Below, piece by piece: positions 1 through 45,885 of a DNA stretch of 56,611 nt (positions within the stretch are counted from its first letter, which is position 1; each line of letters starts with the position of its first letter). The stretch is from a virus (lineage: Duplodnaviria > Caudoviricetes). Below the pieces are notes generated by a model. The model was given only the letters and a program-made list of their open reading frames with translations. It searched no databases and had not been told where the DNA came from. The position numbers were made by a program, and so were the translations under genes. The stretch covers positions 1 through 56,611 of IMG/VR virus record IMGVR_UViG_3300018063_000015; one strand, 5' to 3'.

Positions 1-884
1 ACGTGCATAACTTGCATACTGTTCTCGAGCCATATGTCATTGACTCTAAATGCATCACGTGCACTTACATATGCCTTCTTATGCTCAGGCGTAAAGTTAA
101 CTCTAACGAAGTTGTTGATTATCTTTGGTAGATACAGCCCAACTTCATCATAAGTACATCTACGTCCGTAGCGATCCATTAAGCGCTTTAGCAGTGTCCC
201 ACGTTGACCATATACTTCCGTGCCGTAGCGTGAGGTATACGTTTGACAATAGGTGTTGATGAATTGCCAATAGCTTGTAAATGTTAATGGATCTATGATA
301 CTAAGCTGCATGAATAGATCATCAGCTTCCTTCATAATAGGTGTACCTGTCAGCAAAAAGACACGCTCACTAGCATGTGCTAATGCTTTAGCTGCACGTG
401 CTTGCTGTGACGACCTATTACGAAAGTGGTGTGATTCATCATATATCAAAGTATCAAATTCAGGGAATTGAAACTTGAGATCCTTACGTGTTGGCACTTC
501 ACGTGGTCCTAAAACACGATTGAAGCGCAACATTTGATGATTGAAGATAGTCCACTTAGCACGTTCTGCTACGTTGAGTGCACCCTGACGGTTGTTTCGT
601 GTACCAGATGCTAGCACTACACTATCATCTGGGAATTGTGCACGGATTTCATCCCACCAATGTTCTACAAGGTATGAGGGACAGGCTATACCTATGCTAT
701 CACCGTCGGCGGCTGCCATCATGGCACTAAGCGTCTTCCCAAGCCCTGGAGGATGTGCTATGATTGCTTTCTTCTTGTCACGCAAAAACTCAGCATCTTC
801 CCACTGATAGGGTCTGGGAGTTTGGTTGAGCTTGTCTGAATCAAACTCTTGCTGAATCGTAAACGTAGGAGATTCAGCTATCAT
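1..884 (-). CDS. SNF2/DEAD-like superfamily 2 helicase, 3' end truncated by the window edge
   Basis: Not in the ORF track. Manual translation from ATG 884 (overlaps the stop of the upstream ORF) gives the Q motif PRPYQ, Walker A HPPGLGKT, Walker B LIYDESH and motif III LLTGTP; the frame stays open to the edge. Confidence 0.9.
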   Translation of the reverse strand, partial: MIAESPTFTIQQEFDSDKLNQTPRPYQWEDAEFLRDKKKAIIAHPPGLGKTLSAMMAAADGDSIGIACPSYLVEHWWDEIRAQFPDDSVVLASGTRNNRQGALNVAERAKWTIFNHQMLRFNRVLGPREVPTRKDLKFQFPEFDTLIYDESHHFRNRSSQQARAAKALAHASERVFLLTGTPIMKEADDLFMQLSIIDPLTFTSYWQFINTYCQTYTSRYGTEVYGQRGTLLKRLMDRYGRRCTYDEVGLYLPKIINNFVRVNFTPEHKKAYVSARDAFRVNDIWLENSMQVMH

Positions 885-1192
885 TGTGTTCTATAGCTTC
901 TAGTAGCATACAATTCTATGGAATATGTTCCAGGCTCAAACTTCCATTTACTATCCCAAGATATCACTTGTGCATGTAACCTTAAATCGATTTTCCACAT
1001 CGTACGGCCAATTTCAGAGGTACGAATTGATACATAGCTTTCACTAGAGCTAACTTCAGCAACCCTGAATTTATCCTTGGCAGCAAGCGTTAGTGGACAG
1101 CATTGCGTAATTACGTAGGGCTCAACGTGCTCAGTGCGTATCCTATTTGCTTCTTCGATATGATCAAGTGTTACTGTTATTTGCTCAATCAT
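881..1192 (-). CDS. Hypothetical protein, paralog family VTxxHI...CPxxLA...xPxxF/Y
   Basis: ORF track; start moved to ATG 1192 after AGAGG. Shares motifs with 2643-2897 and 51516-51770. Confidence 0.75.
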   Translation of the reverse strand: MIEQITVTLDHIEEANRIRTEHVEPYVITQCCPLTLAAKDKFRVAEVSSSESYVSIRTSEIGRTMWKIDLRLHAQVISWDSKWKFEPGTYSIELYATRSYRTQ

Positions 1193-1328
1193 TGCATCCT
1201 CTGGTTGTCGTTGATTATTTGCTCTAAGCACTCTATAGCCTCTTTGCAACCCTGATGCTTGTCTATTTCATACAACGTTTGACAGACGCTTATGAATCTA
1301 GCTAGCTCTTTCTTTGAAAGTTTAGGAA

Positions 1329-1529
1329 CTAAGTGCACTTCACTTCTTCTAGACGCACCATTTTATCAGTATCCATATATAGTTCTAAAACTGTATCGTT
1401 AAACAATATACCTCGAGAATTCATGACATTTATCCACGAACTTGCCATAGCAATAGCTTTATCATATGTAATATCATCACTGTCTATTGTTAACCACACT
1501 TTTACAGAGAGTCCCATTTTAGCATACAC
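1329..1529 (-). CDS. Hypothetical protein
   Basis: ORF track; sits in a tightly packed minus-strand gene run. Confidence 0.55.
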   Translation of the reverse strand: MYAKMGLSVKVWLTIDSDDITYDKAIAMASSWINVMNSRGILFNDTVLELYMDTDKMVRLEEVKCT

Positions 1530-1789
1530 CTTCCGTGCTTTTGTGACGGTACCTCGATTACACTCGTCAGCGGTTGGCTACACACTAAGCATAACGGCAT
1601 AGGTTCTACGTTCAACGTTGGCAAGGGCAATGGATTTAACTGCGCTATTACTGGTAGCAGCTTTAGTTCCTTCGCTATTTCCACATGTTTGCACGTGCGG
1701 CGGAAGTAGAATCCTGGACATGAACAGTTACCATTGTCATCTATTACGTAGTATTTGCCCTTCTTATTAAAACTAGGAACTGTTAGCAT
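1502..1789 (-). CDS. SWIM zinc-finger protein
   Basis: CSCPGFYFRRTCKH fits the CxC-x(n)-CxH SWIM motif; second CxxC...HxxC finger near the C-terminus. Confidence 0.8.
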   Translation of the reverse strand: MLTVPSFNKKGKYYVIDDNGNCSCPGFYFRRTCKHVEIAKELKLLPVIAQLNPLPLPTLNVEPMPLCLVCSQPLTSVIEVPSQKHGRCMLKWDSL

Positions 1790-1921
1790 TTATTTCGTCC
1801 ATATCACTGTCTTCTATTGTGCGCTTTTCCCACTTAATCCACCAATAGTATCCCATTACTTGCATGTCTGTAGTAGATGGAGCCGCTATTGGCCATAATG
1901 GAACTGTGTTAGGAAATTTCA

Positions 1922-2140
1922 TTAGTTATGGTCTCCGTATGCTGATTCTATTTCCTTATCACAGCCGTCACAATACCTTGATGGACCTTCATAGAAGATA
2001 TCACAATCTTCTATCGGTGGCTCGGCGTCTTGACTAGCACAACCATTGCACCACTCACTACCATCATGGCTATAGTACAACACTGGATACCCTTCTACAT
2101 TAGAGGGAAATAGATTGTCTACTTTAGCTGGAAGTTTCAT
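1922..2140 (-). CDS. Small CxxC...CxxC zinc-binding protein
   Basis: GYPVLY..DG..WCNGCA and YCDGCDKEIESAYG. Confidence 0.75.
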   Translation of the reverse strand: MKLPAKVDNLFPSNVEGYPVLYYSHDGSEWCNGCASQDAEPPIEDCDIFYEGPSRYCDGCDKEIESAYGDHN

Positions 2141-2285
2141 TTTTCATAGCCTCTCTTGTGAGATACACGTTTTGACGCGCATCGTTTAGACGGTTAACAC
2201 TAGCAGTCATACCTAGATTCTCGTGATGTTTTTTTGCAGCTTTTAATTCACGCAGCGCTTTACGGTAGAGTGTAGCTGGTTTCAT
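2124..2285 (-). CDS. Hypothetical protein
   Basis: Start moved to ATG 2285 (MKPATLYRK), which is coupled to the stop of the upstream ORF and preceded by GAAGGA. Confidence 0.6.
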   Translation of the reverse strand: MKPATLYRKALRELKAAKKHHENLGMTASVNRLNDARQNVYLTREAMKNETSS

Positions 2286-2446
2286 TATAGTTCCTTCATC
2301 ATCTCGTCTATACACACTTTGCATAGACAGCCACCACGCTGCATGTTCCATACTACTTCGTGGAAAGCACCACAACTTGAACACCGGACTGGTACGTTAT
2401 ACTTGTACCAACGTGCACTTAAATGCTCAGCGTGCAATTCAATCAT
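2285..2446 (-). CDS. Small zinc-finger protein (53 aa)
   Basis: Below the track cutoff: MIELHAEHLSARWYKYNVPVRCSSCGAF...CLCKVCIDEMMKEL; GGGGAG RBS upstream. Confidence 0.65.
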   Translation of the reverse strand: MIELHAEHLSARWYKYNVPVRCSSCGAFHEVVWNMQRGGCLCKVCIDEMMKEL

Positions 2447-2450
2447 ACTA

Positions 2451-2642
2451 CTACTCCCCCCAGTAATAATATTTATCTGTTCTTGCGAGCCAGAAAACTA
2501 CTTTCCACTTCCACAGCAGAAGAACTACAGCTAGATCATTTAACTCAACATCGTGCAATAGAGCTAATTGAAGTCCTCTCTCATAATCTGGAACAGTTAC
2601 GCTTAGACGGTTTTTAATAGCTAATCTCATTTTGAGCTCCAC
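2451..2642 (-). CDS. Hypothetical protein
   Basis: ORF track; abuts its neighbours. Confidence 0.55.
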   Translation of the reverse strand: MELKMRLAIKNRLSVTVPDYERGLQLALLHDVELNDLAVVLLLWKWKVVFWLARTDKYYYWGE

Positions 2643-2897
2643 CTAAAGCAAACGTGTGGTATCAAGACGAAACTTGAATGGCTTTACTGCATGACGTGAA
2701 TCTAAGCGTCGTATAAACCGTTGTACACTGCGTGGTGGTAGAAATCCAATGGATTTTGCGTGAAGTTTTATTTCATAGCGACCCACTACAACGGCTGGTA
2801 CAGTAATGGCTTCCTTTATGGCTAAGGCTACTGGACATTCTGTGCTTGACTTACGATAGCCACGGTCGATGTGGTCTTGTGTTACACTAATTAGCAT
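2643..2897 (-). CDS. Hypothetical protein, same paralog family as 881-1192 and 51516-51770
   Basis: MLISVTQDHIDRG...ECPVALAI...FIRRLD...PFKFRL. Confidence 0.8.
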   Translation of the reverse strand: MLISVTQDHIDRGYRKSSTECPVALAIKEAITVPAVVVGRYEIKLHAKSIGFLPPRSVQRFIRRLDSRHAVKPFKFRLDTTRLL

Positions 2898-2947
2898 TTT
2901 GTGCTACCTTTGTTTTTGATTGCGCACTGAAGAGCCGTAGCTGTACA

Positions 2948-3787
2948 TCAAACTTGTACCACGCTACCACCTAAATGCTCAGTTTGCGACTTTACTTTAG
3001 ATTGAGCCCTCAAGGCATCCATGAACGTATCGAAACTAGAGAATCCAGCTTGCAAGAACGCCTTACATAGAACGCTGAGGGAATGTACGCCACCGTACTG
3101 TTGCACGAACGACGCAAACTGCTGTTGATTTGCACGTCCAAAGCAATCTATTAGGAGCTTGATTGTGTCAGTATCGGTATCATATGCTTCAGCTATCACC
3201 TCATAATAATCTTGCTCGCTGTCAGTATATGACTTGACGTTTGATGACCCACACAAGACGCAATACGCTGGGGTTATGAACGATGATGGCACTAGGGTCG
3301 TTATTCTAAACGTTGCTAGGCAATCCTTACACGTAATTGTCAGTCGCAGATTGTACTTCTGCATGGTTGAGGCTACTTTCTTATTTGATTGGTTATAGTT
3401 GGCTGCACGGTGCACCAGCGTTGTTGGCTTCAAACCTTTATCTTTGATCGTTGCTAGGAACGTTGTAAAGCTCACATGGTCCGATCGCTGGAATGCAGTA
3501 TATAGAAAAGTAGCTACGTCATATGGGAGATCATATGATGTAGCTATTCGCTCTATTCGATCACGTTGTGGGTCTATGTGTGGTATTGTTGGAACGCCAC
3601 ATTGTGGACAATGTGTCGGAATTGGAGCACTATCAGGCTGAACACTCGATATTTGAAATTGGCTACAACAATCTAAGCGCACGGTATCACTAGATAGTGC
3701 TGAGTCTGAATACTTATACGCCGTGCCGTGCCTTACTAGTGATAGGGATTGTTGCGTGATATTCCTCCCAGTTTGATGGCTCGACAT
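2948..3787 (-). CDS. Protein with two tandem zinc-ribbon plus helical modules
   Basis: RLDCCSQF...HCPQCG...IATSYD and RLTITCKDC...YCVLCGS...IAEAYD. The track start at 3826 lies in the -35 box, so the true start is 3787 or later. Confidence 0.7.
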   Translation of the reverse strand: MSSHQTGRNITQQSLSLVRHGTAYKYSDSALSSDTVRLDCCSQFQISSVQPDSAPIPTHCPQCGVPTIPHIDPQRDRIERIATSYDLPYDVATFLYTAFQRSDHVSFTTFLATIKDKGLKPTTLVHRAANYNQSNKKVASTMQKYNLRLTITCKDCLATFRITTLVPSSFITPAYCVLCGSSNVKSYTDSEQDYYEVIAEAYDTDTDTIKLLIDCFGRANQQQFASFVQQYGGVHSLSVLCKAFLQAGFSSFDTFMDALRAQSKVKSQTEHLGGSVVQV

Positions 3788-3796
3788 GCCTGATAC

Positions 3797-3826
3797 ATTA
3801 TACCACGCCCTAAAAAAATTCCGCAA
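3797..3826 (-). promoter_or_regulatory. Sigma70-type promoter
   Basis: Minus strand TTGCGG-18 bp-TATAAT with a TG extended -10 (GTGGTATAAT). Confidence 0.65.
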
Positions 3827-3832
3827 GTGTAA

Positions 3833-3859
3833 ATGGCAGGTTCTTTAGAAATCTGCCAT
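3833..3859 (-). terminator. Hairpin, probable terminator
   Basis: ATGGCAG..CTGCCAT inverted repeat, followed by a short T run on the minus strand. Confidence 0.5.
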
Positions 3860-3878
3860 CTCCATTAACGACTTCATT

Positions 3879-4002
3879 GACAAGGGCTAGTGTCTTACGA
3901 TTGGGGCGCACTTGCACGCCTTCACTCGACGGCTGGGCCGTATCGACTACTTAATAGGGTCGGGCGTTGGTTTTAACTAGCAAGCAGTCTCCAGCCCTGG
4001 TC
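3879..4002 (-). ncRNA. Candidate structured, tRNA-like RNA element (copy A)
   Basis: Intergenic. Closing stem AGGGCTGG/CTAGCCCT; internal hairpins CGAC/GTCG, ACGGC/GCCGT and GGCG-TGCAAGT-GCGCC; motif shared with 11894-11979. Confidence 0.4.
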
Positions 4003-4008
4003 CTTTTA

Positions 4009-4941
4009 TTACAGTGTGGGGCCATGTTGTAGAGTCTTTGTTGGACGTGTTACTGGCTTCAAGAACTCCAATCCTATAGCTTCTAGAACAGAACTAGTTA
4101 TACTTGTCTCTGTGAAGTTTCGTTGTGGTACTATTTCAAACCTGTGGGCTAAAACTATATACCTTGCTCTTGTTTCAATTGACAGTCTGAGGGGATGTGA
4201 ACTTTTCTTGAAGTCACGATCCATCCATTGCCAACGCATTCCTACATAGTCTCCTGGCTCTTGTGGTGGTCTAACATCTACAAAGTCGGAGTATGATAGT
4301 GTTTCTAGGTAATTCGATATTCCATAGGCTGCGTAGGATATCTTGCGTCTTGTGCCATCGCCCATTGGCTCTATATATCCATCCTCTAGCCCCATTGATA
4401 TTAACCTATTATGGGCAGGGCGTGATAGAGTATATGACAAAGTGTCCGTTAGATCCATTGGCACTAGTCTGTCAGGATCTACGTTACGCAATACTTCTGG
4501 TACAACTACGCTGGGAAAGCCCTGTAGTTTGTTGGGCCATGCTCCAGGTTGAATGAAGCCAAGGGCTACTGCGTTTAAGAAGTTGCTGATCGTGAAATAG
4601 ATTGTTCTATCCGCGAGGCCGTGAATGGTAGCTAATTCTACATATCGTGTGGTAGATGCTGTGACTAGATTTAGCATTACACTGTACTGATATGGGCGTC
4701 GTGCTATAACTTCTTCAAGCGACGATATAGTATACTTCTGTGGAACGTATTTTGATATCAGTCCAAGCAGTTCTATTGTTGGTGGTGGTTGTACTAGGGT
4801 GAATGATCGTTGTGCTAAATCGTTAACGAAATCGCTTAGGCCGTGTGCCCTACTACCCAGTGGATTTACGTAGCCCCCTTCCATCGCGTGTTTCAGGAGT
4901 GTTGTTCTCGTTGGCTTTAGCAAGTATAGGTGCAACCCCAT
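4009..4941 (-). CDS. Putative DNA-binding protein with four RHH-like repeats
   Basis: Internal duplication visible by eye (LYLLKP..GYVNP..GLSDFV versus YTLSRP..GYIEP..GISNYL); strand-helix-helix pattern four times. Confidence 0.6.
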   Translation of the reverse strand: MGLHLYLLKPTRTTLLKHAMEGGYVNPLGSRAHGLSDFVNDLAQRSFTLVQPPPTIELLGLISKYVPQKYTISSLEEVIARRPYQYSVMLNLVTASTTRYVELATIHGLADRTIYFTISNFLNAVALGFIQPGAWPNKLQGFPSVVVPEVLRNVDPDRLVPMDLTDTLSYTLSRPAHNRLISMGLEDGYIEPMGDGTRRKISYAAYGISNYLETLSYSDFVDVRPPQEPGDYVGMRWQWMDRDFKKSSHPLRLSIETRARYIVLAHRFEIVPQRNFTETSITSSVLEAIGLEFLKPVTRPTKTLQHGPTL

Positions 4942-5248
4942 AGGTGTCCTTGCCCTCCTTAATTGTTAGCAGATTGTGCGTTAAGACTTCTACGATTGCA
5001 CTTTGTAGACTTTGTGTTGATGTAGCTGGAAAGATCATGGACATCCAAGGTTTAGCCCACGGCCAATCAATACCTTTTTTTGCTACCCTTGTCTTATGAT
5101 TTATTATTGGTGAGCGAATAGGACGTGGAGATGGTTCATATTCTGTATTAAGTAATATGTTGAGAGCTTGTGAAAGCGTACATTGATACTCTAACATGAT
5201 TAGGTTTAACACTCTCGACGCTGTAGCTGATATGTTAAGCATTGTCAT
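4853..5248 (-). CDS. Putative RHH-like DNA-binding protein
   Basis: Start moved to ATG 5248 after GGGAGG; MTMLNISATASRVLNLIMLEYQCTLSQALNILL has an RHH-like pattern. Confidence 0.6.
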   Translation of the reverse strand: MTMLNISATASRVLNLIMLEYQCTLSQALNILLNTEYEPSPRPIRSPIINHKTRVAKKGIDWPWAKPWMSMIFPATSTQSLQSAIVEVLTHNLLTIKEGKDTYGVAPILAKANENNTPETRDGRGLRKSTG

Positions 5249-5268
5249 TGGACTGACCTCCCAGCTAA

Positions 5269-5279
5269 AGTATACCACA
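5269..5279 (-). promoter_or_regulatory. Extended -10 promoter for the leftward operon
   Basis: Minus strand TGTGGTATACT about 20 bp upstream of ATG 5248. Confidence 0.5.
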
Positions 5280-5648
5280 GATGGTGGAACATTTTTCCGA
5301 AATGTTACAACAAATTGGGTATTGGGGTATGGGTTTCGAATTTTTCGGTCCGAAATTCTACGGGGGTATCTCACATACCACTATTCTATAATTTATATAT
5401 TAATTGTATTAATCTTCCTAGTATGTTTTCCCTACAGATTTTCGGACCAAAAATTCACCAAAACATAGCACAATACATATTGGCTATCAATACCGCCATC
5501 TTGTGCGGGTAATCGCGTGCAAGCGGGGCGACAATGGACTTTAACTATGTGCAAGGGTAACGACTATAACAAGGTGCTACGTTAAGCACTCAACTAAGGC
5601 CCTCTGCTTTGTACTCCGAAATATATCATCTTTGATACATTTTGTAGT

Positions 5649-5662
5649 AGGACATATGTTCT
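5649..5662. promoter_or_regulatory. LexA (GAAC-N4-GTTC) box-like site
   Basis: AGGACATATGTTCT, one mismatch from AGAACATATGTTCT. Confidence 0.35.
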
Positions 5663-5673
5663 CTCATATCATC

Positions 5674-5739
5674 AATAAGACACGCCTAATAAGACACGCC
5701 TGTATTTGTATTAATAAGACACCCCTAATAAGACACCCG
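5674..5739 (+). repeat. Four direct repeats AATAAGACAC(G/C)C in two pairs
   Basis: Copies at 5674, 5688, 5713 and 5727; 14-bp spacing within each pair. Confidence 0.9.
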
Positions 5740-5778
5740 TAGGTTAGCTGGCTGGTTAGCTTAGGTAGCGCTGTACGC

Positions 5779-5981
5779 AAAGTTTCGTCTAAACTAACCC
5801 ATTAGCTTAGTCTATACTAACACATTAGTTTAGTCTAACCTAACCTCGGAGGTTAGACTATACTAACTTCAATGATTAGTCTATACTAATAGGTTAGTTT
5901 AGCCTGCACTAACTCGCGAGGTTAGTATAGGCTAACTCGTTAGTAGAGACTTTACTAATCCGTGAGGTTAGCCATGCTAAC
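5779..5981. repeat. Array of nine 19-bp DtxR/IdeR-box-like imperfect palindromes, 23-bp period
   Basis: Units start at 5779, 5802, 5825, 5848, 5871, 5894, 5917, 5940 and 5963; e.g. TTAGTTTAGTCTAACCTAA versus the DtxR consensus TTAGGTTAGSCTAACCTAA. Confidence 0.9.
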
Positions 5982-6077
5982 TTTACTATCAGCGATTGCT
6001 TATGATGCTATCAGAATAGTCTTATAGTAAATGAGCGGCTATGATAGGTTATGAGTAGATGAGTTTCTAGGCATACC

Positions 6078-6086
6078 TGCTAGGAT
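6078..6086 (+). promoter_or_regulatory. Extended -10 promoter for the early island
   Basis: TGC-TAGGAT directly upstream of the structured leader. Confidence 0.4.
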
Positions 6087-6130
6087 GTGAGTGTAGGCAG
6101 TTAACTGAATAAGCGATCCACAATCGAATA

Positions 6131-6506
6131 TCCCCTTGAAGAGTCACCTGGGTCGGACGTGAGGCAGCTTTACTGCTAGGGCGCATACCAGGGTACGGAG
6201 GCTAGTAGGGGGGGAAAGCGTAACAGGTAGCCAGAGGCAGTGAGACTCCGCGCGCAGTGCAAGCGGGTAACTGGCTACCTTAGAGCACAAGTAAGGCTAC
6301 TCTACAGGCGGTATCAGACAGTAAGTCTGGGCGGATTGACGCTGACCGTTTCAACGCTGTACGTTGCTAGTCACTACACACAAGTACCACGGATTGCACC
6401 GTAGTCACGGGCAGGGAACGTTGACGTGCTAGGGCCACTACAAGCAATGGGCGCAATCACCTAAAGTATCTTCAGCGGTCTGATACCGCCTATCGAGTAG
6501 CTTTGC
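6131..6506 (+). ncRNA. Candidate structured non-coding RNA or leader (three stem-closed domains)
   Basis: Stems TCCCC/GGGGA (6131-6215), AGGTAGCCAG/CTGGCTACCT (6225-6280) and an approximately 26-bp stem 6291-6319/6478-6506; no convincing ORF. Confidence 0.55.
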
Positions 6507-6523
6507 TAACAGGAGAGGGAACA

Positions 6524-6574
6524 ATGGAAATCTTCGTCGTTCTACTCGCGATCGCGTTCCTGTTCACAACGTGA
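6524..6574 (+). CDS. 16-aa hydrophobic peptide MEIFVVLLAIAFLFTT
   Basis: Strong RBS AGGAGAGGGA; first ORF after the structured leader. Confidence 0.5.
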   Translation: MEIFVVLLAIAFLFTT

Positions 6575-6575
6575 C

Positions 6576-6788
6576 GTGATGTTCAATCAACATCCCACCA
6601 CGTTCGACGTTCCAGGTCCAGCATGGGATAACCCATATTGGGACAGTTACGATGCCACCATTAGAGTAGCTGACCTGCTTCTAGGATTGCCTGTACGTCT
6701 CGTCGAGGCGATGATCCTAGAGCAGGATGGCTACTCCGTGGATGACGTGCTAGCAATGATTAGCGTGGAAGGAGAACTAGCAAAATGA
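6576..6788 (+). CDS. Hypothetical early protein (possible sigma-region-4-like helix bundle)
   Basis: ORF track; LLGLPVRLVEAMILEQDGYSVDDVLAM pattern. Confidence 0.6.
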   Translation: MMFNQHPTTFDVPGPAWDNPYWDSYDATIRVADLLLGLPVRLVEAMILEQDGYSVDDVLAMISVEGELAK

Positions 6789-6943
6789 GTAAACGTCAAT
6801 GGCATCAATACCATTGGCTAGCCGAGCAGTTAGAACGTATTGAAGCCTTGCTACAAGCTGGTGATGTTGAGACTGCTAAGCGGGCGGTAATCAACGCCCT
6901 TGTGCAGGCACGCACTTATCGTGCAGCAGAACTAGAGCTATGA
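6785..6943 (+). CDS. Hypothetical early protein (52 aa)
   Basis: ATGA overlap with the upstream ORF and GAAGGAG RBS; MSKRQWHQYHWLAEQLERIEALLQAG... Confidence 0.65.
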   Translation: MSKRQWHQYHWLAEQLERIEALLQAGDVETAKRAVINALVQARTYRAAELEL

Positions 6944-7074
6944 TGATTAGCGTCGGAGCATACCCAACGCGGTATGGTGGTCGCAAGGTGAGAATGTATG
7001 TCTTTGTGACCATCAAGCAAAGTAGCTTAGTCGGTAAGGTACTGACATGGCTATTCAGATGGGCAATGGAGTAA
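6940..7074 (+). CDS. Hypothetical early protein (44 aa)
   Basis: ATGA overlap with the upstream ORF; fills the gap exactly. Confidence 0.5.
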   Translation: MMISVGAYPTRYGGRKVRMYVFVTIKQSSLVGKVLTWLFRWAME

Positions 7075-7076
7075 CA

Positions 7077-7265
7077 ATGCGTGAACTATACAAGGGTATC
7101 AGGCGTGGTACGCTGGTAGAAATCGTTTCTGCTAACGCCTCGCGCGTAACGTTCTGCTGCGCGACTGTTCCCACCTCCGTCAAGCTATCCATGCCGCGCA
7201 AGCAATTCCTGTCGGCGTTTCGTGTCACAACCGTGGGAATTGTTCCACGGCGTATGGTAGACTAA
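7077..7265 (+). CDS. Hypothetical early protein
   Basis: ORF track 7047-7265; start moved to ATG 7077 after GGAG. Confidence 0.6.
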   Translation: MRELYKGIRRGTLVEIVSANASRVTFCCATVPTSVKLSMPRKQFLSAFRVTTVGIVPRRMVD

Positions 7266-7335
7266 TAGTAGGCCAGGAGAATACGCCGCAAGCTGAATAG
7301 GGGTTAGCTACCCGTTATGAAGTGTCCAGTGTCCA

Positions 7336-7830
7336 GTGTCCAGCGACCACAAATTCGATAGGAGAATCCAATTGTCAAAGACTGCTAACGTTCCCAGCGA
7401 GGCCGCTCCGTTTGACGGATCGTACGTACCGTTCAAGGACGGTAAGGTTGATACCGATGTCAAGTGGCGCGCCGATGACGGTACGCTTATGCACTACAAT
7501 AGTGAGGGCGTAGCCCTCGCCGTTGTGTTTAGCATAAGCGCCTCCTGTTCCGAGCCCATGAACGACCTAATCGACTCTGCTCTACGTGACTTCAACGACG
7601 GTAAGAAAAAGGAAGATCAGTCCAGTAGAGCCGAGTGGATACGTGTTGTAGTAGCCGACAAGATCGGCTATGATCTGTCGCAAGAGCCCGAACGCGAGCG
7701 CGGCAGTGGACTGGTAGTCTATCGCGAGAAGGTGGCGAAGGCTACAAAGACTCACGATGCACTAGTATCCGTGCTTGACAGTAATCCTGAACTGGCAGCT
7801 ACGCTGAAAGCTCTTGGCATCGAGCTCTAG
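7336..7830 (+). CDS. Hypothetical early protein with an RHH-like segment
   Basis: ORF track; FSISASCSEPMNDLIDSA...SRAEWIRVVV resembles ribbon-helix-helix. Confidence 0.7.
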   Translation: MSSDHKFDRRIQLSKTANVPSEAAPFDGSYVPFKDGKVDTDVKWRADDGTLMHYNSEGVALAVVFSISASCSEPMNDLIDSALRDFNDGKKKEDQSSRAEWIRVVVADKIGYDLSQEPERERGSGLVVYREKVAKATKTHDALVSVLDSNPELAATLKALGIEL

Positions 7831-7833
7831 AAG

Positions 7834-7878
7834 GGACTAGGCGAGGGGAGTAGCTAACCACTACTCCCCTCGCCGTCC
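7834..7878 (+). terminator. Perfect 14-bp hairpin after 7336-7830 (terminator or processing site)
   Basis: GGCGAGGGGAGTAG-CTAACCA-CTACTCCCCTCGCC; no U tract. Confidence 0.6.
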
Positions 7879-7967
7879 TCCATGGTAGTGTATCGTAACA
7901 GTCGAATGGGCGATGGTCGAGCAGTATGGCTACTGCGCCTAGCAAAGCTACTAGGATGGGTTAGCTA

Positions 7968-8141
7968 GTGCCACGCAAGCGTAAGGCTAAGGCTTTCAGC
8001 CTATGGCGAGCGTACCGACTGCTAGGGATGCTCAATACGTTGAGCATTCTACTGTCGGGTAACCCCAAGAGGATAGCTCGCCATTTCCTTCGCAAGTATC
8101 TGGTCAAGCGTAGTGGTCGCCTATTCAAGAATGGGAGATAA
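7968..8141 (+). CDS. Small basic protein (57 aa)
   Basis: GTG start; PRKRKAKAFSLWRAYRLLGMLNTLSILLSGNPKRIARHFLRKYLVKRSGRLFKNGR; below the track cutoff. Confidence 0.5.
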   Translation: MPRKRKAKAFSLWRAYRLLGMLNTLSILLSGNPKRIARHFLRKYLVKRSGRLFKNGR

Positions 8142-8144
8142 GTA

Positions 8145-8255
8145 ATGGCGCCTTACTTCGCACACATTCCGCTTAGGGCTACAGGCGGATGGTATCATCC
8201 TACAAGGCAAATGGGCTGGCTAATGTATTGGCCCGTCGTCTTGACCTCGCGCTAG
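8145..8255 (+). CDS. Small protein (36 aa)
   Basis: GGGAG RBS and ATG 8145; ends just before the terminator. Confidence 0.4.
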   Translation: MAPYFAHIPLRATGGWYHPTRQMGWLMYWPVVLTSR

Positions 8256-8261
8256 TGCTAT

Positions 8262-8301
8262 AGGATGGCGTACTGTCTACGGATGGTGCGCCATTCTTTT
8301 T
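8262..8301 (+). terminator. Rho-independent terminator closing the early island
   Basis: GGATGGCGTACTGTC-TACG-GATGGTGCGCCATTC followed by TTTTT; UNCG tetraloop. Confidence 0.85.
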
Positions 8302-8313
8302 GTCCCTGAAATA

Positions 8314-8385
8314 TACTTGCTTGTGCAAACAACTAAAATATTTGTTTGCACAAGCAAGTAACTTATTTGTTTGCGCACGCAAATA
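8314..8385. repeat. Three operator-like 16-bp imperfect palindromes, 25-bp period
   Basis: TTGCTTGTGCAAACAA (8317), its exact reverse complement TTGTTTGCACAAGCAA (8342), and TTGTTTGCGCACGCAA (8367). Confidence 0.85.
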
Positions 8386-8422
8386 AAAAATTTCTCATTT
8401 GTCTATTTTTTTGTGAAACGGA

Positions 8423-8530
8423 CCTCCCTTTATAAAAAAAGCAAAATTCCCTAAACACACTATATCAACAATAATAAATCCCCTCTTTATAGAAAAAACG
8501 AATTTTGAAAAACTGACCATATTAACAACA
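8423..8530 (+). repeat. Degenerate 57-bp direct repeat with A-tracts upstream of terS
   Basis: CTTTATA at 8428 and 8485; ATAT(C/T)AACA at 8462 and 8519. Confidence 0.55.
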
Positions 8531-8698
8531 AGCTAGTACCCCTGAAAAAGACACTCCTTCGGTTCCTCCCATAATATGGTATATTCAATGTAGGCGCTGG
8601 GAAGCTGCGTCCATAGCAAATTTGTGGCCAATAAAGCATAGGATAGTGTGTAATCGTTGTCACACCAGCGTGAACGGTAGGTTATATCATAACAGCCA

Positions 8699-9142
8699 GT
8701 GGATTTGTGTAAAGTGCTTCAAGTTGTTGACGACCCACAAGAAATAGAAGAAGCAATCATCACGTTTGCTGCTGCTAAGGGCAACATCCCTCTAGCTGCA
8801 GAGCGACTACACATACCACAAACACTACTCGTATCGTTAATCAGCAAGGACCAGGAGCTACTACTTCAACACTTGAAAATAATGGCCATCATCAATACTT
8901 TTGAATCACTAGGCACAGCCCATAACAACTTAAAGGTAGCCATACCCAACATGGAACCTTATGAGCAGGCTAAGACATACACAGCACTGCTTCAAATAGC
9001 AGAATCATTGACTCATGCACCACCACCTGCTGCAAGCAGCCATGTAAATATTCTACAGATCATGCAAGCGCTGCCGGTTGATGCACGCGAAGCCCTTACC
9101 TTTCTATTGAAGGACGGCCATGACAACGGCCATTCAGAATAA
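8699..9142 (+). CDS. Putative terminase small subunit (N-terminal HTH)
   Basis: Immediately upstream of and overlapping terL; KGNIPLAAERLHIPQTLL is HTH-like. Confidence 0.6.
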   Translation: MDLCKVLQVVDDPQEIEEAIITFAAAKGNIPLAAERLHIPQTLLVSLISKDQELLLQHLKIMAIINTFESLGTAHNNLKVAIPNMEPYEQAKTYTALLQIAESLTHAPPPAASSHVNILQIMQALPVDAREALTFLLKDGHDNGHSE

Positions 9143-11606
9143 AGAAGAAGCACTAGCTGCTTTAGCACGTTACGTACGTGCTAATACTCCTACTCCTCCA
9201 CGTATTCCTAGCTTTAAAGATTGGGCAGAGTCTAGTTTCTGGATACCACCAGATAGTACAGGCTCTACTCCACACTTAATACCTCTTGTAGAGCATCAAC
9301 CTATTATTGTGAATTATGCCCTTAATCCTGAGAATGAAATAACAACCATTATCTATAGTGCACCAAAAAAATCAGGGAAGACAGCAATAGCAGCTGCAAT
9401 GGCTAGATACATAGCAGAGACTTTTGGTCCATACTCAGAAGTATTCTGCCTAGCTAATGATATGGAACAGGCGCGTGGTCGTGTGTATCAAGCTGCTGTG
9501 CGATCGTTAGAGTTAGATCCTAGATACAACGCTGCTAAGCGTGAAATTCCTGGTTATTGGAACGTTGTACAACGTGAAGCAATACATACTCCTTCTTCAT
9601 CTATACTTCGTGCAGTGTCATCGGACTATAAGGGCGAAGCTGGTTCAAATCCAACAGCTACAGTGTGGTGTGTGGCAGGCGAAACGGAAATTCTAACAAA
9701 GCATGGTTGGATTGTCGCAACAGAATTAACAGAGAATGATGAAGTTGCTACATTGTCATCACGTGACACAGTACAGTATCAAAAGCCTACTGCTGTTAAC
9801 AAACAAGTATACAGCGGTAATATGATTAGATTTAATCATCGAAGAGTAGAATTTTTGGTTACACCCAATCACAGAGTATATGGTAAGTTTCTAGGCAATA
9901 GCAGAGACAAAGCGAAAGCAAAATGGTCGTTTGAATATGCTGATGTATTACTAAAAAGATATTCATCTGGCTACATAAAATCTGATGCTGCAGCCTATGA
10001 ATCCACCGATTATACAATTGTAACTCCAGAATTAGCAGCATTTTGGGGATATTATCTGTCAGAAGGTTGCTATAATGAAAACGGCTTTGTAACAATAGCC
10101 CAGTCCAAAGCAGCAAATCCAAAAACGTATTTTACGATTAAAGCAGTCATGGCATCTGTATTTGGTGAAAATAATATAAGACCAGATGCTAGAGGGCAAA
10201 AAGTATCAGTTAAGGAAGAAGTATTTGGCAGTGCAATTAACATAATGCAAGGTAAGCAAAACGTACGGTATGTTCCTGATTTAATAATGAATGCTCCAAC
10301 GGATATGCAAAGAATATTTTTGGCTGCATATCTAGAAGGTGATGGTTGGTTTGCTGGTAAAGAAGGTTTTCAATTTGAGACAATCTCATTAAAGCTAGCA
10401 AATCAATTGATGCAAGTTGGCCTCCATTGTGGATATGTACCAAGATATATGGGTAATAGAAAACGTGGAGATAATTACCAAGTAATACACAGGTGCTCGC
10501 TATCTACTGGTCCAATTTATTGGCAGCGCAGCGGTGGACATGGTACTTTTGAAGAAGAACACTATGAAGGCACTGTGGTATGTCCATCATTGCCAAATGG
10601 AATATTTTTCATTAGATACAATGGAAAATGTTGTTGGACAGGAAATAGTGAATTGTGGGGCTACAGCCTTGAAAAAGACCTTAGATTGTGGGAGGAACTA
10701 ACTCCAGTACCAACTAGGCGCAGTTTACGCATTGTAGAGACATACGCTGGGTATTCCGACGAGCCAGGCCCTTTATGGGATTTGTGGCAATTAGCTAAGG
10801 AAGGACAACAACTAACTGTTGACGACATAGCCTGGCCATTCCCAGGCCCAGTGCCAATATGGCATAACAAACGTGCACACCTCTTTGCTTACATAGATCA
10901 AGGCCCACTTGCACGCAGGATGTCTTGGCAAGATGAAGCCTATTATGAAGAACAAGCTAACACACTCTCACCACAAGCTTACCAGCGCCTTCACTTTAAC
11001 TATTGGACAACAAGCACTACTCAGTTTGTACCTATAGAGTGGTATAAGGCTTGCTTCGATCCAGCAATGCCACTGTTGGATCGAAATAAGATGTGTGTAT
11101 TAGGTGTAGACGCCGCTGTCAGTAGTGACTGTTGTGCAGTGTCATTAGTTTCCCGCAATGACAAAAGTGATCGTGAAGTAGATCATCATTTTAGTTTAGT
11201 GTGGGCACCACCAGCAGGTGGCACGATAGACTATAGTGAAACTTTAGAACCAGCTATACGTGAAATTTGCAGCAAATATAACGTAGTTGAAATAGCCTAT
11301 GACGCTTTTCAATTACATTACATGATGACTAACTTTAGGAACGAGGGCTTGGCCTACGTTTACTCGTTTAGCCAAGGTAACGATAGAGCTAAAGCAGACA
11401 AGCAGCTCTACGACATGATGAGAGACAGACGATACCACCACAACAACGACCCAAACATGGAGGAACACCTAAAGAACTGTGCAGCAAAGCAGAGCAAAGA
11501 TGAAGATACCAAAATGAGAATAGTTAAGAAAGCTAACGATCGTAAGATTGATGTCGTAGTGGCTGATTCAATGGCAGTTAGTGAATGCCTCCGTTTGCTT
11601 GTATAA
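9120..11606 (+). CDS. terL: Terminase large subunit with intein
   Basis: Walker A APKKSGKT; RNase H-like nuclease motifs LGVDAA..SD, IAYDAFQ and KIDVVVADSMA. Confidence 0.93.
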   Translation: MTTAIQNKEEALAALARYVRANTPTPPRIPSFKDWAESSFWIPPDSTGSTPHLIPLVEHQPIIVNYALNPENEITTIIYSAPKKSGKTAIAAAMARYIAETFGPYSEVFCLANDMEQARGRVYQAAVRSLELDPRYNAAKREIPGYWNVVQREAIHTPSSSILRAVSSDYKGEAGSNPTATVWCVAGETEILTKHGWIVATELTENDEVATLSSRDTVQYQKPTAVNKQVYSGNMIRFNHRRVEFLVTPNHRVYGKFLGNSRDKAKAKWSFEYADVLLKRYSSGYIKSDAAAYESTDYTIVTPELAAFWGYYLSEGCYNENGFVTIAQSKAANPKTYFTIKAVMASVFGENNIRPDARGQKVSVKEEVFGSAINIMQGKQNVRYVPDLIMNAPTDMQRIFLAAYLEGDGWFAGKEGFQFETISLKLANQLMQVGLHCGYVPRYMGNRKRGDNYQVIHRCSLSTGPIYWQRSGGHGTFEEEHYEGTVVCPSLPNGIFFIRYNGKCCWTGNSELWGYSLEKDLRLWEELTPVPTRRSLRIVETYAGYSDEPGPLWDLWQLAKEGQQLTVDDIAWPFPGPVPIWHNKRAHLFAYIDQGPLARRMSWQDEAYYEEQANTLSPQAYQRLHFNYWTTSTTQFVPIEWYKACFDPAMPLLDRNKMCVLGVDAAVSSDCCAVSLVSRNDKSDREVDHHFSLVWAPPAGGTIDYSETLEPAIREICSKYNVVEIAYDAFQLHYMMTNFRNEGLAYVYSFSQGNDRAKADKQLYDMMRDRRYHHNNDPNMEEHLKNCAAKQSKDEDTKMRIVKKANDRKIDVVVADSMAVSECLRLLV
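9669..10646 (+). mobile_element. Intein (326 aa) with LAGLIDADG homing endonuclease
   Basis: N-terminal splice block CVAGETEILT, block B VTPNHRV, LAGLIDADG motifs GYYLSEG and AYLEGDG, C-terminal WTGN followed by extein Ser. Confidence 0.92.
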
Positions 11607-11908
11607 AGAAAGGTGGTCTTATGATGAAAGTCTATGTGCTAGAGACGGGAGATGTTAGTGGTGTATATATGTCCCCAGAACTAGCAATGGGTACACTTCC
11701 TAATTTGGAATTTATTGCACAACTAAATAAAGATAAAAATAGAGTATGTAGCTGGTCCACATATAGTGGAAGTGCTCAAATACGTGAGTATACTATAGTG
11801 GAGGACGGCCCAACGGCGAGCCCTACAAAAGCGGCATTTTATAGTAAAGAGGCACCCACGTATCATGAAATTCCATATTTCGAGGCAGAGGCTCTGGTTG
11901 CTAGTTAA
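11585..11908 (+). CDS. Hypothetical protein inserted between terL and portal
   Basis: ORF track; likely start at MMKVYVL (ATG near 11620) after AAGGTGG. Confidence 0.65.
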   Translation: MPPFACIKKGGLMMKVYVLETGDVSGVYMSPELAMGTLPNLEFIAQLNKDKNRVCSWSTYSGSAQIREYTIVEDGPTASPTKAAFYSKEAPTYHEIPYFEAEALVAS

Positions 11909-11979
11909 AATTTAACGCCGCGCCCAGTAGAAGCAGTCTCAAGCGCCATATAGGCGCGTGCAAGTCGCGAAGCGACTGG
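11894..11979 (+). ncRNA. Candidate tRNA-like element (copy B)
   Basis: CTGGTTGC/GCGACTGG closing stem, TA, GTTA-AAATT-TAAC D-like arm, and CGCG-TGCAAGT-CGCG T-like arm. Confidence 0.35.
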
Positions 11980-12176
11980 ATGGCAAAGTGGAAGATCTAG
12001 GAATAATAGTAGATATTAAATTAGAAAATGAAACGGTAATTGGTACCATATTGGATTGTAAGCATTGTGAAATGTTAACTGTACAAATATTTAAGAAAGC
12101 AGTGTATGGTGACACTGCATTATTTGAGTGTAGTCTTTGCCATAAAGTGAAATTAGAGCAATGCAGCCTCCAGTAA
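11958..12176 (+). CDS. Small zinc-ribbon protein
   Basis: CKHC...CSLC. Confidence 0.55.
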   Translation: MQVAKRLDGKVEDLGIIVDIKLENETVIGTILDCKHCEMLTVQIFKKAVYGDTALFECSLCHKVKLEQCSLQ

Positions 12177-42312: not shown

Positions 42313-42648
42313 TCATAATTGCCCCCTATTGGCTACAGACAAAGTGTTCAATTCATCAAGCAGGTTTAATACTACTTCTGGAGTCTCTTTATCCTCTGAA
42401 TACGGATGCTCTATTGGATCAACTAATCCTAATATTATCATGGCTAGCCACCGCCAGTGATTTGCTGTACCTTCTATTTGACATGACTCGTCTTTCCCGT
42501 ATCCTGTCCACCACCAGTCATAGTCAGTTCGCTGCAAATGTACACGTTTAGCAGCATTTATGTGTTCTGGCATTTGTTCTTTAGCTTTTATATAACGTTC
42601 TCGTATTGCCTCTCGCTCTCTTGGGCTCATTGAAGTTACTCCGATCAT
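42313..42648 (-). CDS. Hypothetical protein
   Basis: ORF track; ATGA coupling. Confidence 0.6.
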   Translation of the reverse strand: MIGVTSMSPREREAIRERYIKAKEQMPEHINAAKRVHLQRTDYDWWWTGYGKDESCQIEGTANHWRWLAMIILGLVDPIEHPYSEDKETPEVVLNLLDELNTLSVANRGQL

Positions 42649-45645: not shown

Positions 45646-45885
45646 CCAAATAGCCATGAAATATAAAATGCCATAAATATCACAATTCCAATCATGGTTA
45701 ATAAAACACACCCACACCCTTTCATAAATGTAAATTATAAGTAAAAGACAAATTTCTCACTATCCAATCCTCAATTGCTACTGTAATTTCTTTATTCATA
45801 CTTCTTCTATTTTTCTCAGCCAAATCTCTTAGTTGTCTAGCTAGATCGCTAGGCACTCGTAATGCATACCTGTATGTAGATTTAC

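What the first reader, a model, noticed from the sequence alone, without database searches (positions are those of the whole stretch)
5650..8560. Candidate system: an insulated pre-early island bracketed by batteries of regulator-like sites
Seen: a 2.2-kb plus-strand unit (promoter near 6080 to a clean terminator at 8262-8301) that is visibly GC-richer and more C-ending in codons than the rest of the window. It holds a structured leader and about nine tiny ORFs. It is flanked on the left by direct repeats, a LexA-like site and the 23-bp array, and on the right by the 25-bp array and A-tract repeats just before terS. Established: T5 and SPO1 carry host-takeover genes in long terminal repeats, and the T5 injection-stop region is rich in repeats. 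Inference: this is a terminal repeat or first-injected segment whose borders recruit several different DNA-binding proteins, possibly host transcription factors, to gate DNA entry, protect ends or sense host state.
Basis: inference. Interest (0 to 1): 0.75.

Follow-up and report, generated by a model that had tools for sequence, protein, structure and literature searches.

The report
Foreign small-gene cassette in phage control region
An uncultured freshwater-sediment phage carries, in the one large gap between its replication genes and its packaging genes, a GC-rich block of tiny genes that looks imported from another phage and is flanked by several arrays of likely protein-binding repeats; whether this block is also the repeated end of the phage chromosome remains open.

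Summary
The core observation holds. Window 6080-8301 has 52.3% GC against 41.6% elsewhere, the highest of 1089 sliding 2.2-kb windows, and its codon third-position GC is 0.38-0.62 against 0.31 in 25 large genes. It ends in the strongest terminator-like hairpin I scanned. On the left lie 4x14-bp repeats and a 23-bp array of TTAGT-N4-ACTAA palindromes. On the right lie three 25-bp TTGC-N4-GCAA palindromes and two 52-nt A-tract repeats.

Three sub-claims fail or are weak: the promoter near 6080, the LexA site, and a structured leader over its whole length.

A 2094-bp metagenome relative (L006) shows that four small ORFs are real genes (dN/dS 0.13-0.18). It also shows the gene set is mosaic, and that a non-coding block upstream of the 152-aa gene is more conserved than the genes.

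None of the six island ORFs scanned (of nine) matches a known family above its cut-off.

My best reading is a horizontally acquired accessory or early gene cassette inside the phage's origin and packaging control region.

The terminal-repeat idea is neither shown nor refuted. Contig depth over the block is about 2x its flanks in one run, at most 1.6x, 1.4x and about 1x in three others. T5 hallmarks such as DnaA boxes are absent.

The parts
5338..5456 (.). Two near-palindromes (TTTCGGWCCRAAA at 5343-5355 and 5440-5452) flanking a leftward promoter-like site (5412 to 5383, TTAATA-18-TAGAAT). Probably the early-left promoter with paired operators.
   Evidence: (4 matches seen, 0.10 expected; 0 of 100 shuffles reach 4).
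5632..5661 (+). Rightward promoter-like site TTGATA-17-TATGTT. Its -10 element is overlapped by a 1-mismatch Cheo-type box, GGACATATGTTC (5650-5661).
   Evidence: Neither is above chance on its own.
5674..5738 (.). Four copies of a 14-bp direct repeat, AATAAGACAC(G/C)CCT, arranged as two tandem pairs.
   Evidence: Of 6 exact AATAAGACAC hits in the window, 4 are here.
5742..5981 (.). Zone of GTTAG/CTAAC half-sites. It includes about eight 23-bp units (5781-5964) with the palindromic core TTAGT-N4-ACTAA. A ninth, degenerate unit is seen by eye at 5966-5981. Iteron-like.
   Evidence: 15 half-sites in 250 bp; the next best 250-bp window elsewhere has 5.
6080..6523 (+). GC-rich stretch (53.7%) with no convincing ORF. 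A 30-nt imperfect inverted repeat (6290-6319 with 6478-6507) ends 4 nt before the ribosome-binding site of the first ORF.
   Evidence: No Rfam family matched.
6524..6574 (+). 16-aa hydrophobic peptide ORF (MEIFVVLLAIAFLFTT) behind AGGAGAGGG. Conserved in L006 at 12 of 16 residues.
   Evidence: dN/dS 0.15.
6579..6788 (+). 69-aa ORF, conserved in L006 (66% aa identity).
   Evidence: dN/dS 0.13. No Pfam or PHROG hit.
6785..7074 (+). 52-aa and 44-aa ORFs joined by ATGA overlaps. L006 has different ORFs in this position, so this is a mosaic slot.
7047..7265 (+). 72-aa ORF whose core from 7077 is conserved in L006 (81% aa identity). It has a sub-threshold resemblance to DUF4222.
   Evidence: 16.7 bits against a cut-off of 27; dN/dS 0.17.
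7229..7371 (+). Conserved non-coding control block. It holds 39 nt identical to L006 (7233-7271, including the near-palindrome GTGGGAATTGTTCCAC), a GGTTAGCT site (7302) and AGTGTCC heptads (7321-7343; 3.3 copies here, 2 in L006).
   Evidence: 87% identity over 173 columns, while synonymous sites of the neighbouring genes differ at pS 0.5-0.7.
7372..7830 (+). 152-aa ORF with a TTG start behind AGGAGAA. It is the only island protein with a wider family: six small viral hypothetical proteins.
   Evidence: dN/dS 0.18. No Pfam, PDB or fold match.
7840..7874 (+). Perfect 14-bp GC-rich hairpin just after the 152-aa gene, with no T run. L006 has a different GC-rich stem at the same place.
   Evidence: z -3.36 for 7830-7975.
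7882..8255 (+). 28-aa ORF (its core is conserved in L006; all 3 changes in the 52-nt block are synonymous), followed by 57-aa and 36-aa ORFs that have ribosome-binding sites but no comparative support.
8262..8297 (+). Intrinsic terminator-like hairpin of 16 pairs followed by a T run. It marks the end of the GC-rich unit.
8310..8384 (.). Three 25-bp units, each holding a TTGC-N4-GCAA palindrome. The first is inverted relative to the other two.
   Evidence: (4 matches seen, 0.40 expected; 3 of the 4 are here).
8423..8576 (.). Two 52-nt A-tract-rich repeats (8423-8474 and 8480-8531), and a third CCTCCC box at 8565 that partly overlaps a promoter-like site (8548-8575). The 300 bp starting at 8293 are the second most AT-rich in the window.
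8699..9142 (+). 147-aa ORF overlapping the start of TerL. It is a small-terminase candidate by position and size only.

Best explanation
The finding lies in the single large control region of an uncultured siphovirus that looks lytic. Replication genes run leftward from about 5374. The terS candidate, TerL and the structural genes run rightward from 8699.

Into this gap a cassette of small accessory genes (about 6080-8300) has been brought in from a phage of higher GC.

How I think it works (inferred, not shown):
- The cassette is read rightward, probably early.
- Its first product is a 16-aa membrane-type peptide behind a long leader that can pair with itself.
- An internal promoter/operator block (7229-7371) controls the 152-aa gene. 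That protein is the best candidate for the cassette's own regulator.
- The strong terminator at 8262-8297 keeps this transcription out of the packaging and late genes.

The flanking arrays belong to the phage's own machinery rather than to the cassette:
- The 23-bp palindrome array acts like origin iterons.
- The three 25-bp palindromes plus the A-tract repeats just upstream of terS act like a terminase-recognition (cos/pac-type) or late-operator site.
- The paired palindromes and 14-bp repeats act as operators of the divergent early promoters.

The extra depth of the block in some runs comes from co-occurring relatives that share parts of this region.
For: SHOWN
- Genome layout: SNF2 helicase, PolA, primase, Sak4 and exonuclease on the minus strand; TerL and tail genes on the plus strand.
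- Sharp GC and GC3 step confined to 6080-8301. AT-rich arrays lie directly on both sides.
- L006 is collinear in 5 blocks but has other ORFs in two slots. That is a mosaic gene set, as in accessory regions.
- dN/dS is 0.13-0.18 for four ORFs.
- The non-coding block 7215-7385 is 87% identical, with 39 nt unchanged, although synonymous sites differ at pS 0.5-0.7.
- All 5 GGTTAGCT sites of the window lie in 5742-7966.
- The repeat arrays are unique to this region.
- Terminator at 8262-8297.
- Contigs of three runs bridge the borders: X1 2000-8383, X2 4998-5797 and 5830-8389, X3 5371-6277 and 7367-8415. So the island is not an assembly chimera (X1 may be the source sample).
- Divergent relatives (about 87% identical contigs at depth 2-3.9) are present in runs X1 and X2, within the block as well as in TerL.
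- In X4 a short stretch near 5509-5527 has depth 8.8-10.9 while the island contigs have 2.9-4.1. This is uneven, sample-specific sharing.

INFERRED
- The roles assigned to each array, the early timing, and the regulator role of the 152-aa protein.
Against: - No donor was found. There is no match in 50,697 phage records or 72,556 plasmids, in IMG/VR, or in 185,579 species genomes.
- There are no flanking repeats at the island borders (no shared 8-mer) and no integrase or transposase. The mode of acquisition is therefore unknown.
- No promoter was found for the cassette.
- No function is known for any island protein.
- In run X2 the exact-match island contig has 10.4x depth against 3.9-7.0x for seven exact-match flank contigs. 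The relatives seen in that run have a divergent island, so they do not explain this excess. A terminal repeat would.
- No initiator or other array-binding protein was identified.
Confidence: 0.45

Rival explanations
1. The roughly 3-kb unit (about 5371-8400) is the direct terminal repeat of a linear genome. It carries pre-early, host-takeover genes that enter first, and the border arrays serve packaging, end protection or an injection stop, as in T5 or SPO1.
For: - In X2 the island contig (5830-8389) has depth 10.4 against a mean of about 4.9 for the flank contigs. The contig that spans 5371 (4998-5797) has an intermediate 6.96.
- In X3 the two long block contigs have depth 5.1-5.2 against 3.0-3.2 in the flank contigs.
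- The position, right upstream of terS and between two divergent arms, is where ends often lie (my own knowledge).
- Small ORFs with unknown function plus large untranslated repeat regions match the description of the T5 left terminal repeat (bioRxiv 10.1101/866236; abstract and passages read).
- PolA carries the uracil-DNA-glycosylase-like N-terminal domain, which I recall is also found in the SPO1 polymerase.
Against: - The depth ratio is not constant. X4 block contigs have 2.9-4.1 against flanks of 2.8-4.5.
- In X1 one contig covers -336..8383 at mean 23.3 against 20.5 for the next contig. If the flanks are equal, that allows at most about 1.4x over the block.
- These depths are per-contig means from assemblies, not reads, and no termini can be seen.
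- 0 of 7 DnaA-box matches lie in the region.
- 0 of the 6 island ORFs scanned hit any PHROG family, so none hits a PHROG family of T5 pre-early or SPO1 takeover proteins.
- A 10-point GC jump is not a known property of terminal repeats (recalled).
- TerL is too distant (at most 27% identity) to predict the packaging type.
Confidence: 0.25
2. The unit is native to this phage lineage rather than imported. Its GC richness would reflect selection, for example for high expression in a host with other codon preferences or for RNA structure. It is simply the early operon of the phage.
For: - The only relative, L006, is also about 49% GC over its whole 2094 bp.
- The GGTTAGCT sites link the island to the left array zone. 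This suggests regulation is integrated with the resident control region.
Against: - GC3 differs by about 0.25 from all 25 large genes, including the neighbouring leftward early genes. Selection on expression rarely shifts non-coding parts too, yet the untranslated stretch 6080-6520 is 53.7% GC.
- The rest of the genome that L006 comes from is unknown.
Confidence: 0.15
3. The extra depth reflects local over-replication, or a small defective replicon that holds the origin-like array and the packaging-side repeats. It would not reflect genome ends or sharing.
For: An iteron-like array and a terS-proximal repeat set lie within the same 3 kb. Depth excess is seen in X2.
Against: - The depth step looks abrupt in X2: 10.4 against a bin mean of 3.5 just to the right (a bin mean counts uncovered bases). 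It is not a gradient.
- No contig joins 8400 back to 5371; table 5 lists a single joint, at 5984-5988.
Confidence: 0.05

Closest known systems
T5 left terminal repeat: pre-early genes plus the untranslated injection-stop (iss) repeat regions (bioRxiv 10.1101/866236; abstract and passages read)
   Same: [quoted passage not shown] They sit in a siphovirus that carries its own replication genes.
   Different: - T5's hallmark paired DnaA boxes are absent here (0 of 7 window hits fall in the region).
- No homologue of known pre-early proteins was found by PHROGs.
- The unit is 3 kb against about 10 kb in T5.
- Terminal repetition is not shown.
- There is a strong GC contrast here.
Lambda cosB with its R sites and bend, upstream of the small-terminase gene Nu1 (recalled textbook knowledge; no call)
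   Same: Three similar sites, one of them inverted, followed by A-tract-rich, very AT-rich DNA. They lie 315-390 bp upstream of the terS candidate.
   Different: No sequence similarity. Each site here is itself a palindrome, which is more typical of an operator. No cohesive end has been mapped, and terS itself is unverified.
Iteron-type origins of phages and plasmids, e.g. lambda ori (recalled)
   Same: About eight regularly spaced (23-bp) units with internal dyad symmetry, next to AT-rich DNA.
   Different: The array is not inside an initiator gene, and no initiator has been identified. A role as a centromere-like or regulatory array is equally possible.
Accessory or anti-defence gene cassettes of phages with a conserved regulator gene and operator, such as acr-aca operons (recalled; an analogy only)
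   Same: Small ORFs of unknown function whose set differs between relatives. A better-conserved gene sits behind a highly conserved operator-like block with repeats.
   Different: - No match to any known anti-defence or Aca family. Only Pfam and PHROGs were searched.
- A DNA-binding fold for the 152-aa protein is not supported.

Membership tests
Direct terminal repeat (terminal redundancy) | Exactly twofold depth over the repeat in every sample | tested here: inconclusive
   Contig mean depths: X2 10.4 against about 4.9; X3 5.1-5.2 against 3.0-3.2; X4 2.9-4.1 against 2.8-4.5; X1 at most about 1.4x, inferred. These come from assemblies only.
Direct terminal repeat (terminal redundancy) | Molecule ends (read starts) at the repeat borders | not testable with these tools
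   All four runs are kept as contigs. Table 6 is empty because of how the runs are stored.
T5-type first-step-transfer / iss region | Paired DnaA boxes in inverted repeats | tested here: not met
   TTWTNCACA has 7 matches in the window and 0 in 5300-8700. The consensus was taken from the paper.
T5-type first-step-transfer / iss region | Homologues of the pre-early proteins (dmp, A1, A2) | tested here: not met
   0 of the 6 island ORFs scanned hit any PHROG or Pfam family above its cut-off.
T5-type first-step-transfer / iss region | Large untranslated region dense in repeats and palindromes | tested here: met
cos/pac site with terminase-binding repeats | Repeated sites and bent or AT-rich DNA next to the terS gene | tested here: met
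   The terS call rests on position alone.
cos/pac site with terminase-binding repeats | Mapped cleavage site or ends | not testable with these tools
   No raw reads were available.
Iteron origin | Three or more regularly spaced repeats of about 20 bp | tested here: met
   Units at 23-bp steps across 5781-5964.
Iteron origin | A cognate initiator that binds them | not testable with these tools
   The neighbouring leftward ORFs (173, 310 and 292 aa) have no family hit.
Horizontally acquired genomic island | Composition and codon usage unlike the host genome | tested here: met
Horizontally acquired genomic island | Mobility gene or flanking attachment repeats | tested here: not met
   No shared 8-mer, direct or inverted, between 5950-6200 and 8200-8450. 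No integrase or transposase hit among the 6 island ORFs scanned.
LexA (SOS) operator | CTGT-N8-ACAG or GAAC-N4-GTTC palindrome (consensus recalled) | tested here: inconclusive
   No E. coli-type hit in the region. One 1-mismatch Cheo-type hit at 5650-5661; such hits number 10 in the window against 15 expected.
Ribbon-helix-helix regulator (for the 152-aa protein; my guess by eye) | Match to an RHH family or fold | tested here: inconclusive
   - No RHH family among 7 members scanned at E up to 10.
- The model has pLDDT 61.4.
- The best fold match has Z 4.4, and none reaches Z 5.
Known structured RNA family (for the leader) | Rfam match | tested here: not met
   0 matches at gathering score for the whole window. 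The 16 sub-threshold matches are hairpin look-alikes: 13 at 8259-8392, 2 at the 7831-7882 hairpin and 1 at 6670-6730.

The most novel reading that the evidence does not exclude
A phage lineage with no cultured relative has independently evolved a T5-like arrangement. In this reading a roughly 3-kb direct terminal repeat (about 5371-8400) carries an imported set of pre-early genes. Three or more classes of protein-binding arrays bracket it and act as packaging and DNA-entry checkpoints. Such checkpoints could support stepwise injection without DnaA boxes.
Probability: 0.1. Interest if true: 0.7.

Novelty: new member of a known kind. Interest (0 to 1): 0.4.

Why it matters
- If the cassette is an imported early or accessory module, it is a clean natural example of how phages swap small host-interaction genes into their control regions. 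It also supplies several short, conserved genes to test: a 16-aa membrane-type peptide, and a 152-aa family found only in viruses.
- The unusually conserved non-coding block gives a defined regulator-operator pair to look for.
- If instead the unit is a terminal repeat, it would extend the pattern of takeover genes in the repeated ends to a new, uncultured siphovirus lineage from freshwater sediment.
- Either way the region locates the likely origin and packaging signals of this genome. That helps to finish and orient such metagenomic phage assemblies.

Tried and rejected
- Known RNA family for the leader or arrays: none at gathering score. The sub-threshold hits are hairpin look-alikes, 13 of 16 at the 25-bp array region (8259-8392). 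No tRNA or tmRNA.
- Close relatives:
  - blastn of 5200-9200 against phages found none.
  - blastn against plasmids found none.
  - IMG/VR found none by the 152-aa ORF, the terS candidate, TerL, the family alignment, or two exact conserved strings.
  - Species genomes found none.
  - The portal-position ORF had no match in phages.
  - Only one metagenome contig, L006, was found.
- Packaging type from TerL: the best matches are at most 27% identical, to temperate Streptococcus phages. That is too distant to use.
- RHH fold for the 152-aa protein was my guess from the pattern FSISAS...SRAEWIR. It is not supported. The 15 long proteins among the 21 hits match only residues 22-66. The 3 of them that I scanned (3 of 3) are FG-GAP repeat proteins, so I left these 15 out of alignment A1.
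- Insertion element or integrative island: no border repeats.
- DnaA boxes: none in the region.
- LexA: see the membership test.
- Expression: no RNA holder was listed.
- Cover in low-depth runs. In X3 and X4 most of the flanks (2000-5339 and 8680-12000) have little or no contig cover while 5340-8680 is covered. At depths of 2-5 this may only reflect the assembler's threshold and the way the runs were chosen (they were found with 4500-10000). I do not use it as evidence.
- Cluster look-ups: island proteins were seen on 4 contigs and TerL on 1. This comparison is biased by gene length and was not used.
- Supplementary files of the T5 paper were not seen.

Full report
WHAT THE WINDOW IS

The window is one IMG/VR virus record of 56,611 bp. 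It is classed as linear and estimated 75% complete.

Genes run leftward from about 5374 to the left end, where an SNF2-type helicase is cut by the contig end. They also run leftward from 56,514 down to 41,368. That stretch holds an exonuclease, a Sak4-like protein, a primase, a family-A polymerase with a uracil-DNA-glycosylase-like N-terminal domain, an HNH endonuclease and a dCTP deaminase.

Genes run rightward from 8699 to 41,393. They comprise a 147-aa ORF, an 828-aa TerL and the structural genes. The finding therefore sits in the only large divergent gap of the genome.

The phage has no near relative:
- No blastn match in 50,697 phage records.
- PolA is at most 27.6% identical to any of them.
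- TerL's C-terminal part is at most 27% identical.
- Nothing was found in IMG/VR.

CHECK OF THE OBSERVATION

The GC island is real and sharp. Positions 6080-8301 have 52.3% GC against 41.6% elsewhere. Only 1 of 1089 sliding 2.2-kb windows reaches that value, and it is the island itself.

Third-position GC of the nine island ORFs is 0.38-0.62. In 25 large ORFs it is 0.31 +/- 0.06, maximum 0.41. C-ending codons are about twice as frequent in most island ORFs.

The unit ends in a 16-pair hairpin with a T run at 8262-8297.

The arrays are real and local:
- Four 14-bp repeats at 5674-5738.
- About eight 23-bp units at 5781-5964 whose cores are TTAGT-N4-ACTAA palindromes. Of 10 window hits, 8 fall here, and 7 of those sit at exact 23-bp steps.
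- Three 25-bp units at 8310-8384, each with a TTGC-N4-GCAA palindrome.
- Two 52-nt A-tract repeats at 8423-8531.

(Repeat coordinates come.) Six of the nine tandem-repeat rows for the whole window fall in 5674-8393.

- Paired TTTCGGWCCRAAA palindromes around a leftward promoter-like site.
- GGTTAGCT, whose 5 window-wide copies all lie in 5742-7966.

Three sub-claims did not hold:
- The scan finds no promoter-like site near 6080.
- The whole leader folds like shuffled sequence (z -1.08). A sub-stretch that I chose after seeing its 30-nt inverted repeat gives z -2.88.
- The 'LexA-like site' is at best a 1-mismatch Cheo-type box at 5650-5661, of a quality that chance supplies.

ARE THE SMALL ORFS GENES?

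One relative exists: L006, a 2094-bp metagenome contig. It is collinear with the island in five blocks.

Four ORFs are under purifying selection, with dN/dS 0.13-0.18 while synonymous sites differ at pS 0.5-0.7:
- the 16-aa hydrophobic peptide,
- the 69-aa ORF,
- the 72-aa ORF core,
- the 152-aa ORF.

A 28-aa ORF shares a 52-nt block with L006, and its 3 changes are all synonymous.

Between the conserved genes the two sequences carry different ORFs. The window has 52- and 44-aa ORFs where L006 has 62- and 31-aa ORFs. L006 also has an extra 87-aa ORF. The gene set is mosaic.

The last two ORFs (57 and 36 aa) have ribosome-binding sites but no comparative support.

CONSERVED NON-CODING PARTS

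The stretch upstream of the 152-aa gene is 87% identical over 173 columns. It holds a run of 39 unchanged bases (7233-7271) that contains a near-palindrome. It also holds a GGTTAGCT site and AGTGTCC heptads present in 3.3 copies here and 2 in L006. That is far more conserved than neutral sites nearby, so it is a functional cis element, most simply a promoter with operator.

After the 152-aa gene both sequences have a GC-rich stem of different sequence.

WHAT THE PROTEINS ARE

- None of the six island ORFs I scanned matches a PHROG family.
- The only Pfam signal is DUF4222, below its cut-off.
- The 72-aa ORF is known only from this phage and L006.
- The 152-aa ORF has six full-length relatives of 153-189 aa among 1.84 billion representatives. 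The protein atlas places it among viral hypothetical proteins.
- My guess that the 152-aa protein is a ribbon-helix-helix regulator found no support. There is no such Pfam family in 7 members, no PDB sequence match, a weak model (pLDDT 61.4) and no fold match above Z 4.4.

IS IT A TERMINAL REPEAT?

Only assembled contigs of four freshwater-sediment runs could be laid, so molecule ends are invisible and depth is one mean per contig.

- X2: the exact-match island contig (5830-8389) has depth 10.4. Seven exact-match flank contigs have 3.9-7.0.
- X3: the two long block contigs have 5.1-5.2 against 3.0-3.2 for the flank contigs.
- X4: 2.9-4.1 against 2.8-4.5.
- X1: one contig spans from beyond the window's left end to 8383 at mean 23.3, and the next contig has 20.5. 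If the flanks are equal, that allows at most about 1.4x over the block.

A true repeat should give 2.0 everywhere. These figures do not, but they are too coarse to exclude it.

Divergent relatives (about 87% identical pieces, depth 2-3.9) are present in the runs, inside the block as well as in TerL. A short stretch near 5509-5527 reaches 8.8-10.9 in X4. Parts of this region are therefore shared unevenly among co-occurring phages.

The contigs do bridge the borders of the GC island, so it is not a chimera.

T5's hallmarks are missing: no DnaA boxes in the region (consensus from bioRxiv 10.1101/866236, abstract and passages read) and no pre-early homologues.

MOST LIKELY EXPLANATION

I read the block as a horizontally acquired cassette of small accessory, probably early, genes. 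It has its own internal control element and a terminator that shields the packaging genes. It is lodged in the phage's control region.

The arrays fit resident functions:
- iteron-like origin repeats on the left,
- a terminase-recognition or late-operator set with bent DNA in front of the terS candidate,
- operators around the divergent early promoters.

These roles are inferences from form and position. None is shown. Confidence is 0.45.

The terminal-repeat reading stays at 0.25. A native, not imported, early operon gets 0.15, and local over-replication or a mini-replicon 0.05.

No donor, no insertion scars and no promoter for the cassette were found. This weakens the acquisition story.

NOVELTY AND VERDICT

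Clusters of small genes of unknown function next to repeat-rich control or end regions are a known kind of thing in phages. This one is a new member with unusual clarity: a sharp composition step, several distinct arrays and a strongly conserved operator-like block, in a lineage without cultured relatives. Interest is moderate. It would rise if raw reads showed a terminal repeat.

Noticed in passing
window 9120-11606 (TerL), residues about 184-513 = 9669-10659: - TerL is 828 aa and carries an intein-like insertion.
- The best phage matches cover only residues 184-513, in megaphages and mycobacteriophages.
- A LAGLIDADG_3 hit falls just below its cut-off: 20.9 against 22.5 bits.
- In X1 low-depth contigs diverge at 9624 and 9672, next to the insertion point. 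In X4 depth is higher over the insertion than over the rest of TerL. This may mean alleles without it, or sharing of the element.
   Followed up: partly
window 45886-48189 (-) and 44012-44581 (-): The family-A DNA polymerase has an N-terminal uracil-DNA-glycosylase-superfamily domain, and a dCTP deaminase lies nearby. This combination is recalled from SPO1-type phages and hints at uracil-derived or otherwise modified DNA.
   Followed up: no
window 1-884 and left contig end: The SNF2-type helicase gene is cut by the contig end. The Logan contig of run X1 continues about 336 bases further left, and another public assembly of 57,299 bp exists. So the record is a fragment, not a genome end.
   Followed up: partly
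window 42645-43844 (-): A Sipho_Gp37-like minor tail protein is encoded on the minus strand, opposite to the structural module that ends at 41,393.
   Followed up: no
window 3001-5500: GC skew is positive here (+0.03 to +0.075) although the three ORFs (292, 310 and 173 aa, none with a family hit) lie on the minus strand. Other minus-strand gene blocks have negative skew. This may be a second block with a separate history next to the island.
   Followed up: no
window 5480-5570: Two copies of a GTGCAAG-type 19-nt repeat (5517, 5549), and a related GTGCAAGCGGGTAA inside the island leader at 6257. In X2 a divergent relative's contig covers 5460-5603, so this non-coding stretch is kept among relatives. 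It folds no better than shuffles (z -0.63 and -1.22).
   Followed up: partly
window 45166-45717 (-): A free-standing HNH endonuclease lies next to the polymerase gene. With the TerL insertion, it is a second homing-type element in the window.
   Followed up: no
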